NCBI RefSeq assembly: GCF_009931435.1
Contig: NZ_CP043414.1
DNA: 64,000 bases
DNA from: Escherichia coli
GTDB lineage: Bacteria; Pseudomonadota; Gammaproteobacteria; Enterobacterales; Enterobacteriaceae
Direction: 5' to 3' (one strand)
The position numbers are program-made. This document shows positions 34,601 to 40,600 of this stretch, in pieces (within the stretch, counting starts at the first letter, position 1; each line of letters starts with the position of its first letter).

Positions 34601-37600
34601 TGACCCTGGCGATGATTTTGCTGGCTGTGCCGTTTACCTTTAGTGCCCCGCGTTCGCCTGGGATGGGTAGCCGTCTCGCTGTAGGCGTCATCGTGGGCTT
34701 ACTCACCTGGATCAGCTATCAAATCATGGTCAATCTGGGATTGCTATTTGCGTTGAGCGCACCTGTTACCGCGCTCGGTTTACCGATAGCGTTTATGCTG
34801 GTGGCGTTGAGCCTGGTGTATTGGTATGACAGTCAACATTAAACCCGCCGTGGCGCAGCACCACAGCGGGCTCACATTACTGCTTCAGAGTAGCAAATGC
34901 CTGAATGATGGCATCGATTTGCTCACGAGTGTGGGCAGCGTTTACGCTACAGCGCAGCAGCGTGATGCCTGCAGGCGCGGCAGGTGGCAGGATAAGATTC
35001 ACATAAACGCCCAGCGAAATAAGCTCGCGCCAGATGCGTAAACCTTCCTCTTTCGAACCGATTATTACTGGCACTACCGGGCTAATATGTGAACTTAACT
35101 CGTAACCCAGTTTTTGCAGACCGTCATACAGATGGTTGGCGTTATCCATCAGCTTTTGCCGCAACTCTGGTTGTGAGGCAATGGTTCTTAACGACGAGCG
35201 CACGGTCGCAATGCAGGACGGAGAAGGAGAGGCGGTAAAAATATACGGGCGGCTGCCGTAGCGCAGCACTTCCATCGCTTCCGAACCGACAGCAAAACCG
35301 CCAATCGAGGCCAGACTTTTACTGAAAGTACCAACGATAATATCCACATCATCTTCAACGCCAACGGCTTCAACCAGTCCGCGCCCCGTTGCGCCTAACA
35401 CGCCAAACGAATGTGCTTCATCGACAATCAAATAACCACCAAGACGACGTTTGATATCAACAATTTCTGCCAGCGGCGCAACGTCACCGAGCATACTGTA
35501 GATGCCTTCAACGATGATAATCGCCTCTTTTGCCCGTTCACCGAGGCGAACCATGCGCCGTTCCAGATCTTTAGCATCGTTATGGCGGAAACGAATAATT
35601 TCCGCTCCACCGAGAGAACAGGCGTCATAAATACTGGCGTGGCTGTCGGCATCCAGTAACACTACGGCGTTATGGTCGGCAAGCGCGCTGATGACGCCTA
35701 AATTCGCGGTATAACCGGTTGAAAAAACGATAGCGGAAGGGCGCTTGAAAAACTCGGCAATCTCTTTCTCTAACGCCAGATGCGGCGCATAACTGCCGTT
35801 TGCCATACGAGAACCGGTGGTGCCGGTGCCTTGGGCCGCTAACGCTGCCTGACCTTCGGCGATGGCATCATGATTGAAGGTTAAACCGAGATAATTATTG
35901 GTCCCGGCCAGGATCACGTTTTTATCGCCGATCCGGCCTTCGGTGGCGGAATACACTTCATCAATACAGGTACCAAACGGCGTTAACCCGTTGTCACTAA
36001 ATTGCAGTCGCTCGCCAGCAAGGCGAGCATATTTATCGTATAGCCCCATTATTTATTCTCCAGCCATGGAAGTAGAGTTTCCATTAATTGCGCAGGGGTT
36101 TTGACATCCAGCAGAATATTAATAGGAATGGAAATATCGAATCTGTCTTCCAGCATCATTAAGAGATCCATCACTTTGATCGACTCCAGGCCAAGATCGT
36201 TGACGAGATCGCTGTCGGGCTTAATTTCCACACCGTTTTCGACCAAATCCTGTAAACAGGAAAGGATGTAATCCATTACTATTTCACGATTTACCATAGA
36301 AACGTTAACACACCTTTAAACAAGACAATCAAAATAGCCCGTTGCGTAATGCGTGTTCCAGGCTAATCCCGGGAAACCAATTAATATCTTCAGAAATACG
36401 GTTATTACTTGCCGACCAGTCGGCGTGGGTTAATTCACGGATTTTCGAGCGGGTCAGCATAGGTTCTTTACCTGCCAGGCGACTCAACGCGGTACTGATA
36501 TCCGCAAGGCAGGTGAGTACCGACAGAGGAATACCAACCATTCGAACGGAACCGCAACGGGCGTCGGCGGCAAGTTGCTGTACGCGTTGCCAGTCATAGC
36601 CGCCGGCGACGCCATCGCATAATTCATAGGTTTGCGTCTGTACAGTTTCGGCGCTTAACCACTGCCCCACGGCTTGCGCGAAATCGGTGACGTGCAGGAA
36701 AGAGAGCTGTGTATCTGGCGCACCAAGTCGTGGCAGCAGGCCGCGCAGCATCCAGTCAAACAGCGGTTTTAACTCTTTATCGCCGGGACCATACACGGCT
36801 GTCGGGCGAAAAATGCCCAGCGTAATTTCGTCAGCCATTGCGGTCAGTCGTTGTTCGGCGACGTGTTTGGAATTTGCGTACCAGGAGAGTTCGGGATGGC
36901 GCGCCGCCAGCGAAGAGATAAACAGAAAACGTTGGCAAAAGCCGCTCTCTTTTGCCGCTTGCATCAGGCGCAGGCTGCCGTCAACGTTACATCGGGTAAA
37001 AATCTCTTCTTTGTGTCCGCGCACTTGCCCGGCGCAATGGACCACCGCGCTGGCTCCGGCAACCAGTTCCCTAAGTGAATGTGTATCTTCCAGCGAACCG
37101 CGCACCCAGATGAGATTATCATTGACGTGAGCGCGGGCAGTACGCGTCAATGCGCGAACGTGAAAGCCGCGGGCGAGCAGGTTATCGATAATATATTTAC
37201 CGATAAACCCGGTAGCGCCCGTCACCGCGACAGTTTGATTCATGCCATGGATTCCTGCACATGAAGGCTTGCAGCATAACGTTTTTTCGCTTCCGCACGG
37301 GCAGGCTTGCCGGAGGACGTTCGGGGAATACTGTGGGGCGGCAACAGATCGATAGCCGCTGTTACGCCAAATTCGCTTTGGATCCGTGCTGCCAGTGCGT
37401 GGATAAGCTGCCCACGACGTTCTTCGTCGCTGATCCTACACTGGATCTGCAAAATGATTTTTTCCTGGGCGGTAACAAAAGCAATCGCATCGCCAGAATG
37501 AATTTCCGGTTCCTGTTCCGCAATATATTCAATATCCTGCGGCCAGATATTACGGCCACGAATAATAATCAGATCTTTAATGCGCCCGGTGACATACAGA

Positions 37601-40600
37601 TAACCGTCCAGCAGATAACCGAGGTCGCCGGTATCTAACCAGCCCGTCGCGGCAATCTCGTCTTGCGAAACCTGGTCGCCAAAGTAACCGCTCATCAGGC
37701 TGGGGCCGGAGATGCAAATATGGCCTACCACACGTTCCGCGACCGGCATACCTGCTTCATTGCGGATTTCAATGCCATGTTCCGGCAACGCTTTACCGCA
37801 GTTGACGAAAGTCGATACGGCGCGTGTTTCAGCACCCGGCGCGACGGCTTTGCCCTGATATTCAAGGATGTCGCGATCCACTTCGTTAACCACAACCCCG
37901 GAGGCTTCATCAGAGAAGCTGACAGCCAGCGCATTTTCTGCCAGTCCGTAGCACGGCATGAAAGTTTTATCGTCAAAGTTAACCTGACGGAAACATTCAG
38001 CGAATTGATGGAGTTGTTCTGCGGAGATCGGCTCAGCACCAATACCAGCAACGCGCCAGCAGGAAAGATCCAGTTCAGCGAGATCTTTTTCATTCACGCG
38101 GCGCTGGCACAATTCATAGCCAAACGGCGGCGCAACAGAAACGGTGCCGCGATTTTTACTGATCAATTTAAGCCATTGCAGAGGACGCATGGCAAAATCC
38201 TGAGTGCGCAAATAATCTACTGAGAGCTGCGTGGCGACGGGGGTCAGGAGAAAGCCGACCAGTCCCATATCATGGTAGAAAGGCAGCCAGGAGACGCAGC
38301 GGTCGCCAGGGCGTAATTTAATGCCATCGTGGCTTATAGCACGTAGATTAGCCATCACTTCGCGATGGGTGATAATGACGCCACGGGGAAAACGGGTGCT
38401 GCCGGAGGTGTACTGGAGGTAGGCGATATCGTTCGGAACTGGACGCTGGAGTACAACATCGGCTTCCGGTAATGCCTTAAACCAGGCGTGGCTTAAAACA
38501 TGTAATTCGGGGTTGTTATGCGTAGCAGCATTGACCAGTGGCAACCACTCATCACCAGTGATAATGGCTGCGGGCTGGCAACTTGCCAGTAAACCCTGCA
38601 GTTTGGCGCTCCAGGAATCCCGCTGACCGACGCCCATTGGAATTGCCAACGGGACGGCGACTAAGCCGGCATACTGGCAGGCAAAAAAAGCCTCTACAAA
38701 CCCGCTACTCGTTTCGGCAATCAGCGCCACGCGATCGCCTTTTTTCAGATTCAGTGATAACAACCGCTTCGCACCAGCTTCGGCACGCGCTTTTAACGTC
38801 TGATATTCCAGTTGATCTTCAAGTTGGCAACGTCTGTCATAAAAATTCATTCCGGCGCTACTCAGAGCGGCGTAGTCCAAAGCATCAACCAGCGTTGGAA
38901 AATCGGCATAGCGCATAGGTAGGGAATGCGTAAAGATGTTATTAGACATATACACCACGAAAAAAATTGGATATCAGAAATAAAATGACAATAATGCGGT
39001 GGATTATATAGGCATAAAAGATAAATGAGATAGTATTTTCATCGGTGCGATATTGAACATTGATTTAAATAATAGGTTTGGCTTTGTTGTTTTTATTGTG
39101 AATGATATTTAATTTATGAATATATTAAGAAGAAGCCTTGTTTGGTTGCCTTAAATCGACAAAAGGCATTGAGGCGCTTCTGTGTAGTCTCTGACCTTAT
39201 CTTAATTATTAATAAATACTATTTATTCTTTGTTTGTATTCATTGGGTTGATTATTAAGATGCCGTTCGTTGCTGTTGCAATCTGTTTGTCACCGTTAAT
39301 TATTTGTTATCCACAGAGATATGGAATGCGATCTGCTGATGATTAAAATTGAAAAAGTAATTAATAAAAATGACCTTAAGGCATTTATCGCTTTTCCGTC
39401 ATCACTTTATCCCGATGATCCAAACTGGATACCCCCTTTGTTCATTGAACGCAGCGAGCATTTGTCGGCGAAGAATCCGGGGACGGACCATATTATCTGG
39501 CAGGCGTGGGTAGCAAAAAAAGCGGGGCAGATAGTCGGGCGGATTACCGCGCAAATCGATACCTTGCACCGCGAGCGTTACGGTGACGATACCGGTCATT
39601 TTGGCATGATTGACGCCATTGATGATCCGCAGGTTTTTGCCGCGTTGTTTGGCGCAGCGGAAGCATGGTTGAAGTTACAAGGCGCAAGTAAGATCAGCGG
39701 GCCTTTCAGCCTGAATATCAATCAGGAAAGCGGATTACTGATTGAAGGTTTCGACACTCCGCCCTGTGCGATGATGCCGCACGGTAAACCGTGGTATGCC
39801 GCGCATATTGAACAATTGGGTTATCACAAAGGTATTGATTTACTGGCGTGGTGGATGCAACGAACCGATCTCACGTTCTCTCCGGCGCTAAAAAAACTGA
39901 TGGATCAGGTGCGCAAAAAGGTGACCATTCGCTGCATCAAGCGCCAGCGGTTTGCCGAAGAGATGCTGATCCTGCGTGAGATTTTCAACTCTGGCTGGCA
40001 GCACAACTGGGGATTTGTGCCGTTTACCGAACATGAATTTGCGACCATGGGCGATCAACTTAAATATCTGGTGCCGGACGATATGATCTACATCGCTGAG
40101 ATTGGTTCTGCACCCTGCGCGTTTATAGTCGGCTTGCCGAACATCAACGAGGCGATTGCCGATCTGAACGGATCGCTCTTTCCCTTCGGCTGGGCAAAAT
40201 TGCTGTGGCGCTTAAAAGTCAGCGGTGTGCGAACTGCGCGAGTGCCGCTGATGGGCGTGCGTGACGAGTATCAGTTCAGCCGCATCGGCCCGGTGATTGC
40301 GCTGTTATTGATTGAAGCCTTACGCGATCCGTTTGCTCGCCGGAAGATCGATGCGCTGGAGATGTCATGGATCCTCGAAACCAATACAGGCATGAATAAC
40401 ATGCTGGAACGCATTGGAGCGGAGCCGTACAAGCGTTACCGATTGTATGAAAAGCAGATTTGATGGCAGTCACCCCTGCTTCATCTCCAGCGGCACCGCC
40501 GAGCGAATCAAATGGTGGCCTTCCAGTTCGATATCGTGGAGATTCTTTTTCACGGTCCGCACATGATCACGTGCGGCGCGCTGGGCGACGTGCGGCAGTC

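What the first reader, a model, noticed from the sequence alone, without database searches (positions are those of the whole stretch)
34877..38958. Four translationally coupled genes (ligase - SDR - ACP - SPT-like) mirror the Caulobacter spt-acp-cerR-acs sphingolipid module
All four genes are on the minus strand with 4-bp or 1-bp overlaps, so they almost certainly form one operon. The lysine motif GTFSKSLASIGGF, a small ACP, an adenylate-forming enzyme with YTSGSTRFPRGV, and a Rossmann-fold reductase (GATGFIG) are the same four functions, in the same adjacency, as the bacterial ceramide core set Spt, ACP, acyl-ACP synthetase and CerR described in Caulobacter.
Basis: partly seen in the sequence, partly recalled or inferred. 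Interest (0 to 1): 0.85.

Follow-up and report, generated by a model that had tools for sequence, protein, structure and literature searches.

The report
E. coli sphingolipid operon, already described

Summary
The window is Escherichia coli chromosome, from yghT to glcC. Two junctions overlap (4 bp and 1 bp). The SDR/ACP junction is a 31-nt gap.

Each gene has a firm identity:
- The synthase passes NCBIfam's curated serine palmitoyltransferase cut-off and fails those for BioF, Kbl, ALAS and CqsA.
- The ligase is about 99% identical to the solved E. coli fatty acyl-AMP ligase 3PBK.
- The four proteins are 96.5-100% identical to BL21(DE3) ECD_02851-02854.

Padilla-Gomez et al. 2022 showed experimentally that the BL21(DE3) proteins are AasR, AcpR and SPT and form 3-oxo-sphinganine from serine. 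They assigned the reductase and YghO (ceramide synthase homologue) by homology.

The gene order ligase-SDR-ACP-SPT is conserved in about 30 gammaproteobacterial species and in a Caulobacteraceae genome (53/39/34/43% identity). About 75% of complete E. coli genomes carry the operon. K-12 lost it through an IS5-associated deletion.

Two questions remain open. One is whether wild E. coli ever makes a sphingolipid natively. The other is what the co-travelling yghRST, yghQ, ytfJ-like and lptF2G2 genes add.

The parts
37240..38949 (-). aasR: fatty acyl-AMP ligase / specialised acyl-ACP synthetase (569 aa). The ORF can be extended to a GTG at 38958.
   Evidence: NCBIfam NF006624 scores 873 bits against a cut-off of 600. 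About 99% identical to PDB 3PBK, the E. coli fatty acyl-adenylate ligase. 96.5% identical to BL21(DE3) ECD_02851. Adenylation motifs YTSGSTRFPRG, YGLAE, TGD, GRIKD and SSGK are present.
36329..37243 (-). cerR/epi: extended short-chain dehydrogenase, the putative 3-oxo-sphingoid/oxo-ceramide reductase (304 aa).
   Evidence: Its start overlaps the aasR stop by 4 bp (ATGA). GATGFIG at residues 9-15, and Y122-x3-K126 aligns with a YxxxK in every orthologue, including the Caulobacteraceae one. 34% identical, E 2e-33, to the syntenic Caulobacteraceae SDR. 96.7% identical to ECD_02852.
36049..36297 (-). acpR: specialised acyl carrier protein (82 aa).
   Evidence: ACP HMM hits fall below the housekeeping cut-offs. 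The candidate phosphopantetheine serine is S39, in LGLESIKV. 100% identical to BL21(DE3) ECD_02853, which was shown to incorporate labelled beta-alanine. A 31-nt gap separates it from cerR, and it overlaps spt by 1 bp.
34877..36049 (-). spt: serine palmitoyltransferase (390 aa).
   Evidence: NCBIfam NF047599 scores 599 bits against a cut-off of 500, while BioF, Kbl, ALAS and CqsA are all below their cut-offs. The best solved relative is S. paucimobilis SPT 2JG2, E 4e-112. H137, D210, H213, K244 and R366 align with the S. paucimobilis catalytic residues H159, D231, H234, K265 and R390. 97.7% identical to ECD_02854.
38950..39320 (.). AT-rich divergent intergenic region between aasR and yghO; presumed to hold the promoters.
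   Evidence: Sequence read. The consensus promoter scan found no more sites than shuffled sequence, and Rfam found no element. The promoter role is an inference.
39321..40463 (+). yghO: homologue of the Caulobacter ceramide synthase (aca/bCerS, CC_1154), transcribed divergently.
   Evidence: 41% identical, E 5e-94, to the Caulobacteraceae homologue. Published figure is 44% to CC_1154. Sits divergently next to aasR in all gammaproteobacterial loci that hold the full cluster. No Pfam or NCBIfam match.
32696..34842 (+). lptF2 (32696-33766) and lptG2 (33763-34842): second copies of the LPS-exporter permeases, convergent with spt.
   Evidence: TIGR04407 scores 323 bits and TIGR04408 scores 307 bits, both above cut-off. 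They co-travel with the cluster. The Caulobacter LptF2/G2 paralogues are implicated in sphingolipid export, and the E. coli UTI89 locus is drawn in the same preprint.
29921..32666 (+). yghQ-like MOP flippase (29921-31270), a 274-aa protein with no known family (31270-32094) and a YtfJ-family protein (32103-32666).
   Evidence: Family assignments. They are found next to the cluster in three different arrangements across Enterobacterales. A flippase also lies beside aasR in the Caulobacteraceae locus.
27504..29869 (.). yghT (-), yghS (+) and yghR (+): three paralogous P-loop proteins of unknown function that travel with the cluster.
   Evidence: They are 33-44% identical to each other and syntenic with the cluster in the Enterobacterales loci that extend far enough, with R/S/T-like genes also beside the cluster in Pseudomonas loci. 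Their only HMM hits are sub-threshold dTMP-kinase matches.

Best explanation
This is the E. coli sphingolipid (dihydroceramide) core operon aasR-cerR-acpR-spt, with the ceramide synthase homologue yghO transcribed divergently.

Proposed mechanism:
1. AasR, a fatty acyl-AMP ligase, adenylates a free long-chain fatty acid. It transfers the acyl group to the 4'-phosphopantetheine arm of the dedicated carrier AcpR, not to CoA.
2. SPT is a PLP enzyme with K244 as the Schiff-base lysine. It condenses acyl-AcpR with L-serine, with loss of CO2, to give 3-oxo-sphinganine. Steps 1 and 2 are shown experimentally for the BL21(DE3) orthologues.
3. YghO N-acylates the long-chain base, and the SDR (CerR) reduces the 3-keto group, giving dihydroceramide. 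This step is inferred from homology and synteny with Caulobacter. The order of the two reactions is disputed in the literature.
4. The neighbouring LptF2/LptG2 permeases and the YghQ flippase probably move the lipid towards the outer membrane. This is inferred from Caulobacter.

The operon appears silent in laboratory-grown BL21(DE3).
For: Family assignments: SPT, FAAL, LptF and LptG HMMs all score above their curated cut-offs. The ligase is about 99% identical to the 3PBK crystal structure. The SPT is closest to Sphingomonas SPT structures and conserves all catalytic residues.

Orthology: the window proteins are 96.5-100% identical to BL21(DE3) ECD_02851-02854, at the same chromosomal site.

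Published experiments on those BL21 proteins (PMC9386255):
- AcpREc carries 4'-phosphopantetheine.
- Co-expressing AasREc, AcpREc and SPTEc gives 3-oxo-sphinganine.
- SPTEc incorporates L-[14C]serine and prefers palmitoyl-AcpR over palmitoyl-CoA or palmitoyl-AcpP.

Conservation: the order yghO | aasR-cerR-acpR-spt recurs in about 30 species and in a Caulobacteraceae genome. RefSeq already names the gene spt. The operon is present in 4067 of 5426 complete E. coli genomes.
Against: No native sphingolipid has been reported for wild-type E. coli in the papers I could search. BL21(DE3) carries the intact operon, yet empty-vector cells and extracts gave no 3-oxo-sphinganine. The E. coli SDR and YghO have not been assayed; the authors write only that they 'might' act as reductase and N-acyltransferase. 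YghO matches no Pfam or NCBIfam family. The final product and head group in E. coli are unknown.
Confidence: 0.93

Rival explanations
1. The synthase is a different alpha-oxoamine synthase (BioF, Kbl, ALAS or a CqsA-like autoinducer synthase), and the operon makes a non-sphingoid amino-ketone such as a CAI-1-like signal.
For: The protein belongs to the same fold family and gives significant but sub-threshold hits to bioF (336 bits), Kbl (299), CqsA (226) and ALAS (218). A ligase plus ACP could in principle feed other acyl chains.
Against: All of those scores are below the curated cut-offs; only the SPT equivalog passes (599 bits against 500). The nearest solved structures are SPTs at E 1e-112, against 1e-59 for Kbl and 2e-35 for CqsA. 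The 97.7%-identical BL21 enzyme makes 3-oxo-sphinganine from labelled serine.
Confidence: 0.02
2. The enzymes work, but in E. coli the locus is a cryptic, horizontally shared island that is never expressed enough to matter. Under this view E. coli is not a sphingolipid producer in nature.
For: Empty-vector BL21(DE3) carries the operon but shows no sphingolipid intermediates in vivo or in extracts. K-12 lost the locus through an IS5-associated deletion and remains a viable, widely used laboratory strain. About 25% of complete genomes lack it. No report of native E. coli sphingolipids turned up.
Against: All reading frames are intact. The cluster is kept at one chromosomal site in 75% of E. coli genomes at 95-99% identity. 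A thirteen-gene neighbourhood is conserved across many Enterobacterales despite rearrangements. That pattern argues for purifying selection and therefore for use under some condition.
Confidence: 0.15
3. This rival concerns pathway order only. The SDR reduces 3-oxo-sphinganine to sphinganine first and YghO acylates afterwards (eukaryote-like order), rather than acylation first and reduction of oxo-ceramide second.
For: Olea-Ozuna, Padilla-Gomez and colleagues propose this order. The E. coli SDR runs straight from Met1 into its Rossmann motif at residues 9-15, so it has no evident signal peptide and is probably cytoplasmic, like SPT (inference).
Against: The Klein laboratory reports that oxidised ceramide accumulates in a Caulobacter cerR mutant, and that CerR is periplasmic while Spt and bCerS are cytoplasmic. 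Both findings favour acylation first. Nothing has been measured for the E. coli proteins.
Confidence: 0.35

Closest known systems
E. coli BL21(DE3) ECD_02850-ECD_02854 (yghO/aca, aasR, epi, acpR, spt), described by Padilla-Gomez et al. 2022, Front Microbiol 13:961041 (PMC9386255)
   Same: Same species, same chromosomal site between yghQ and glcC, and same gene order. The proteins are 96.5% (ligase), 96.7% (SDR), 100% (ACP) and 97.7% (SPT) identical. This is the same locus in another strain.
   Different: Only allelic differences. For example, the window ligase lacks four residues (QKAY) near the C-terminus compared with BL21 and 3PBK.
Caulobacter crescentus CC_1165-CC_1162 / CCNA_01223-01220 (aasR/acs, epi/cerR, acpR, spt), plus CC_1154 (bCerS) and lptF2/lptG2
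   Same: The same four functions in the same order and orientation. In a Caulobacteraceae genome the junctions are similar too: a 4-bp ligase/SDR overlap, a gap of about 30 nt before acp, and acp abutting spt. Identities are 53/39/34/43%. Both loci also hold LptF/LptG paralogues and a flippase.
   Different: Neither the Caulobacteraceae locus examined (L036) nor the gene content described for the C. crescentus locus includes YghR/S/T, YtfJ-like or 274-aa homologues. I looked for neither lptC2 nor cpgA-C head-group genes at the E. coli locus; the preprint says lptC2 appears restricted to Caulobacter. bCerS is divergent and adjacent in E. coli but several kb away in Caulobacteraceae. AasR and AcpR pairs are only partly interchangeable between the two species.
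PDB 3PBK, E. coli fatty acyl-adenylate ligase
   Same: About 99% identical over the full length. It is the same protein from another E. coli strain.
   Different: In the PDB table the molecule is named only 'Fatty Acyl-Adenylate Ligase'. Its partner AcpR and its role in sphingolipid synthesis were shown later (PMC9386255).
Sphingomonas paucimobilis / S. wittichii SPT (PDB 2JG2, 2X8U)
   Same: Soluble bacterial SPT. Aligns over residues 3-385 of the window SPT at E 4e-112. The PLP lysine, two histidines, the aspartate and R390 are conserved.
   Different: S. paucimobilis R378 is leucine in the E. coli enzyme. It is also leucine in the Caulobacteraceae enzyme, so this is lineage variation and not loss of function.

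Membership tests
Serine palmitoyltransferase (alpha-oxoamine synthase family, NCBIfam NF047599) | Scores above the curated SPT equivalog cut-off and below the cut-offs of the sister families BioF, Kbl, ALAS and CqsA | tested here: met
   599.4 bits against a cut-off of 500. bioF 336 against 426, Kbl 299 against 460, CqsA 226 against 428, ALAS 218 against 338.
Serine palmitoyltransferase (alpha-oxoamine synthase family, NCBIfam NF047599) | PLP-binding lysine and the catalytic His/Asp/His/Arg residues (S. paucimobilis H159, D231, H234, K265, R390) | tested here: met
   H137, D210, H213, K244 and R366 align with those residues. R378 is not conserved, but it is also absent in the Caulobacteraceae SPT.
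Serine palmitoyltransferase (alpha-oxoamine synthase family, NCBIfam NF047599) | Condenses L-serine with a long-chain acyl thioester to give 3-oxo-sphinganine | not testable with these tools
   Published for the 97.7%-identical BL21(DE3) enzyme, using L-[14C]serine with palmitoyl-AcpR or palmitoyl-CoA.
AcpR (specialised ACP for sphingolipid synthesis) | Small ACP-fold protein encoded immediately upstream of spt and coupled to it | tested here: met
   82 aa with ACP HMM hits. Its stop codon overlaps the spt start by 1 bp. The arrangement is conserved across taxa.
AcpR (specialised ACP for sphingolipid synthesis) | Carries 4'-phosphopantetheine and is acylated by the cognate AasR | not testable with these tools
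   Beta-alanine labelling is published for ECD_02853, which is 100% identical. S39 is the candidate attachment site.
AasR / fatty acyl-AMP ligase (NF006624) | FAAL-subfamily HMM above cut-off, with the adenylate-forming core motifs | tested here: met
   873.5 bits against a cut-off of 600. Motifs found. About 99% identical to 3PBK.
AasR / fatty acyl-AMP ligase (NF006624) | Loads AcpR and not CoA or the housekeeping AcpP | not testable with these tools
   Shown in vitro for Caulobacter AasR. For E. coli AasR it was shown in vivo only: 3-oxo-sphinganine forms with AcpREc and SPTEc but not with AcpRCc.
CerR / epi (sphingolipid 3-keto reductase, extended SDR) | Rossmann GxxGxxG motif and the catalytic Ser...YxxxK motif | tested here: met
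   GATGFIG at 9-15, SS at 110-111, and Y122-x3-K126 aligned with a YxxxK in all nine aligned orthologues.
CerR / epi (sphingolipid 3-keto reductase, extended SDR) | Orthologous to Caulobacter CC_1164 by sequence and by position between aasR and acpR | tested here: met
   34% identity and E 2e-33 to the syntenic Caulobacteraceae gene. Published figure is 34%, E 7e-38.
CerR / epi (sphingolipid 3-keto reductase, extended SDR) | Reduces 3-oxo-sphinganine or 3-oxo-ceramide | not testable with these tools
   Never assayed for the E. coli protein. The authors write only that it 'might' encode the reductase.
bCerS / aca (bacterial ceramide synthase), for yghO | Homology to Caulobacter CC_1154 and linkage to spt | tested here: met
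   41% identity and E 5e-94 to the Caulobacteraceae homologue. Published figure is 44%, E 1e-107. Adjacent to the operon in every gammaproteobacterial locus that holds the full cluster. Activity has not been assayed.

The most novel reading that the evidence does not exclude
Most natural E. coli strains and many other Enterobacterales and Pseudomonas may make an undescribed outer-membrane sphingolipid under conditions not yet reproduced in the laboratory. The unit responsible would be a conserved island of about thirteen genes, larger than the published five-gene core. It would include three paralogous P-loop, kinase-like proteins (YghR/S/T), a YtfJ-family protein, a family-less 274-aa protein, the YghQ flippase and LptF2/LptG2. 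Together these would give the ceramide a head group and an export route different from those in Caulobacter.
Probability: 0.3. Interest if true: 0.6.

Novelty: already known. Interest (0 to 1): 0.15.

Why it matters
The gene assignments add nothing new. The E. coli aasR, acpR and spt genes were characterised in 2022, the ligase structure is in the PDB (3PBK), and RefSeq names the gene spt. The value of this check is to close the finding and correct small details.

The locus itself still matters. E. coli is the textbook example of a three-phospholipid membrane, yet about 75% of complete E. coli genomes carry an intact ceramide pathway with its own Lpt-like exporter. K-12, the strain on which most lipid biochemistry was done, has lost it. 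Whether natural E. coli puts sphingolipids in its outer membrane is unanswered and directly testable. So are the questions of when it does so and with which head group.

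Tried and rejected
- Promoter and terminator consensus scans of 34700-39400 found no more sites than shuffled sequence, so I make no claim about promoter position.
- An Rfam scan of 27000-41500 found no RNA element.
- Pfam and NCBIfam gave nothing for YghO or the 274-aa protein, so YghO's assignment rests on pairwise homology and synteny alone.
- I suspected that loss of S. paucimobilis R378 (Leu354 here) might signal a different substrate. I rejected this because the Caulobacteraceae SPT and all close relatives also have Leu, and because the BL21 enzyme uses serine.
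- I considered YghR/S/T as homologues of the Caulobacter ceramide kinase CpgB and rejected the idea. CpgB has an LCB5/DAG-kinase domain, whereas YghR/S/T give only weak dTMP-kinase-type P-loop hits and have no solved relative by sequence.
- The primary paper of Stankeviciute et al. 2022 (PMC8891067) is not in the held library. I took the pathway order from the same group's later paper.
- Literature searches for native E. coli sphingolipids, or for any link between yghQ/R/S/T and sphingolipids, found nothing.

Full report
**What is there.** The window is Escherichia coli chromosome. The stretch 29900-40500 matches 4754 of 5426 complete E. coli genomes, and 4061 of them over at least 80% of its length. 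In the best match the annotated gene order is gss, pitB, yghT, yghS, yghR-like, a 'lipopolysaccharide biosynthesis protein' (yghQ-like flippase), a hypothetical protein, a YtfJ-family protein, lptF, lptG, spt, acyl carrier protein, NAD-dependent epimerase/dehydratase, fatty acyl-AMP ligase, yghO, glcC, glcDEFGB.

**Check of the observation.**
- ligase, 37240-38958
- SDR, 36329-37243
- ACP, 36049-36297
- synthase, 34877-36049

The quoted motifs are all present. Reading the junctions directly gives three results:
- The ligase stop and SDR start share ATGA, a 4-bp overlap.
- The ACP stop and synthase start share TAATG, a 1-bp overlap.
- The SDR and ACP do not overlap. A 31-nt spacer separates them.

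So 'all overlapping' is slightly overstated, although one operon remains the natural reading. The ligase most likely starts at the ATG at 38949 (569 aa), as RefSeq annotates it in strain R32_14_1F, and not at the upstream GTG. Consensus promoter and terminator scans of the region were no better than shuffled sequence, and Rfam found nothing.

**Identity of each gene.**
- Synthase. It scores 599 bits on NCBIfam's serine palmitoyltransferase equivalog NF047599 (cut-off 500). It falls below the curated cut-offs of bioF, Kbl, CqsA and ALAS. Its nearest solved relatives are the Sphingomonas SPTs at E 4e-112, with Kbl, BioF, ALAS and CqsA far behind. H137, D210, H213, K244 and R366 align with the catalytic H159, D231, H234, K265 and R390 of the S. 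paucimobilis enzyme. S. paucimobilis R378 is a leucine here. The same is true of the Caulobacteraceae SPT and all close relatives, so it is not a defining residue.
- Ligase. It passes the fatty acyl-AMP ligase model (873 bits against 600). It is about 99% identical over its whole length to PDB 3PBK, the E. coli fatty acyl-adenylate ligase.
- SDR. It has GATGFIG at residues 9-15, and its Y122-x3-K126 aligns with a YxxxK in all orthologues compared.
- ACP. It is an 82-residue carrier protein with a candidate phosphopantetheine serine at S39.

**This is a published, tested system.** A full-text search found Padilla-Gomez et al. 2022 (PMC9386255). That paper names the E. coli BL21(DE3) genes ECD_02850 (yghO, aca), ECD_02851 (aasR), ECD_02852 (epi), ECD_02853 (acpR) and ECD_02854 (spt). 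It draws them beside the Caulobacter operon.

I fetched the BL21(DE3) region and compared proteins:

| Protein | Identity, window vs BL21(DE3) |
|---|---|
| ligase (AasR) | 96.5% |
| SDR | 96.7% |
| ACP (AcpR) | 100% |
| SPT | 97.7% |

The genes sit at the same chromosomal site in both strains. The paper reports the following:
- AcpREc incorporates labelled beta-alanine, so it carries 4'-phosphopantetheine.
- Co-expressing AasREc, AcpREc and SPTEc gives 3-oxo-sphinganine. AasREc does not work with the Caulobacter AcpR.
- SPTEc incorporates L-[14C]serine into 3-oxo-sphinganine, and prefers palmitoyl-AcpR to palmitoyl-CoA or palmitoyl-AcpP.

The reductase and N-acyltransferase roles of ECD_02852 and yghO are only suggested there. 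A 2026 preprint from the Klein laboratory also draws the E. coli UTI89 sphingolipid locus with its lptF2/lptG2 genes. It shows that the Caulobacter paralogues form a complex with LptB and are needed when anionic sphingolipid is made.

**Independent test of the 'mirror' claim.** A scan of one genome per species with the SPT sequence returned 56 loci. I searched them with all ten window proteins. The order yghO(-) | ligase-SDR-ACP-SPT(+) is found in the following genera, with SPT identity of 67-98%:
- Escherichia, Citrobacter, Pseudocitrobacter, Hafnia, Serratia, Sodalis, Tatumella
- Pluralibacter, Mangrovibacter, Rosenbergiella, Pantoea
- Pseudomonas and Stutzerimonas

A Caulobacteraceae genome (L036) has flippase, ligase, SDR, ACP and SPT in the same order and strand, with a yghO homologue 6 kb downstream. 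BLASTP against that locus agrees with the published Table S2:

| Protein | Identity to L036 | E-value |
|---|---|---|
| SPT | 53% | 2e-146 |
| ligase | 43% | 2e-141 |
| SDR | 34% | 2e-33 |
| ACP | 39% | 3e-11 |
| YghO | 41% | 5e-94 |

The junctions are similar there too: a 4-bp ligase/SDR overlap, a gap of about 30 nt before acp, and acp abutting spt.

**Mechanism, and how firmly each step is known.**
- Shown for the E. coli orthologues. AasR activates a free fatty acid and loads it on holo-AcpR. SPT then condenses acyl-AcpR with serine to give 3-oxo-sphinganine.
- Inferred from Caulobacter homology and synteny. YghO adds the N-acyl chain and the SDR reduces the 3-keto group to give dihydroceramide. 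The order is disputed. One group proposes reduction first. The other reports oxidised ceramide in a cerR mutant and a periplasmic CerR, which favours acylation first. The E. coli SDR has no evident signal peptide, because its Rossmann motif begins at residue 9.
- Inferred. LptF2/LptG2 and the YghQ flippase export the lipid.

**Distribution and expression.** The four-gene operon is present over at least 80% of its length in 4067 of 5426 complete E. coli genomes. K-12 MG1655 has only yghO, IS5 (insH9) and a truncated yghQ at this site. It has therefore lost the operon, lptF2G2, the ytfJ-like gene and the 274-aa gene. BL21(DE3) keeps the intact operon. Even so, empty-vector BL21 cells and extracts gave no 3-oxo-sphinganine, so the native locus looks silent under those laboratory conditions. 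I found no report of native E. coli sphingolipids.

**Beyond the finding.** The conserved neighbourhood is larger than the published core. The yghQ-like flippase, the 274-aa protein, the YtfJ-family protein and lptF2/lptG2 stay next to the operon in three different arrangements across Enterobacterales. So do the three paralogous P-loop proteins YghR, YghS and YghT. R/S/T-like genes also lie beside the cluster in Pseudomonas loci, but none is found in the Caulobacteraceae locus. These three proteins give only sub-threshold dTMP-kinase hits and have no solved relative by sequence. They are unrelated to the Caulobacter ceramide kinase CpgB, which has an LCB5/DAG-kinase domain. No paper in the searchable library mentions sphingolipid together with yghQ, yghR, yghS or yghT. 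This is the only part of the locus with room for something new, for example a gammaproteobacterial head group or regulatory step.

**Verdict.** The feature is already known, annotated and partly characterised biochemically. Interest as a discovery is low.

Noticed in passing
window 27504-29869 (yghT, yghS, yghR): Three paralogous P-loop proteins, 33-44% identical to each other, travel with the sphingolipid cluster in the enterobacterial loci that extend far enough, and R/S/T-like genes do so in Pseudomonas. They are absent from the Caulobacteraceae locus. RefSeq calls two of them 'dTMP kinase', but the HMM scores are 25-31 bits against a cut-off of 83, so that name is probably an over-annotation. 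No paper in the held library links them to sphingolipids.
   Followed up: partly
window 29921-32666: A MOP-family flippase (full-length yghQ), a 274-aa protein with no Pfam or NCBIfam match and a YtfJ-family protein stay linked to the spt operon in three different gene arrangements across Enterobacterales.
   Followed up: partly
window 37240-37290 (3' end of the ligase gene): The window ligase lacks four residues (QKAY) near its C-terminus compared with BL21(DE3) and PDB 3PBK. The annotated ligase start also differs between RefSeq genomes: 569 aa in strain R32_14_1F against 562 aa in BL21.
   Followed up: no
L003 (E. coli K-12 MG1655, NC_000913 3129043-3132408): At this site K-12 has yghO, IS5 (insH9) and a 5'-truncated yghQ. 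An IS5-associated deletion removed aasR, cerR, acpR, spt, lptG2, lptF2, the ytfJ-like gene and the 274-aa gene. The standard laboratory strain therefore lacks the whole pathway.
   Followed up: yes
L002 (BL21(DE3)), with PMC9386255: BL21(DE3) carries the intact operon, yet its empty-vector controls show no 3-oxo-sphinganine in vivo or in cell extracts. The native locus appears to be silent in laboratory culture.
   Followed up: partly
L024 (Serratia sp. M24T3, contig03, 9754-11167): This Serratia genome has a second, solitary acp-spt pair (69% and 79% identity) without the ligase, SDR or yghO, in addition to the full cluster on another contig, L012.
   Followed up: no
L059 (Alkalicoccobacillus porphyridii, 273-bp contig): A 273-bp, low-coverage contig in a Bacillota assembly is 97% identical at the protein level to the 3' end of E. 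coli spt. This is most likely assembly contamination.
   Followed up: no
window 34984-34986 (SPT codon 354): The residue equivalent to S. paucimobilis SPT R378 is Leu in the E. coli, other gammaproteobacterial and Caulobacteraceae SPTs, while the neighbouring PPA(A/T)P motif and R390 are conserved. That residue's role as a serine-carboxylate contact is from memory and was not checked here.
   Followed up: yes
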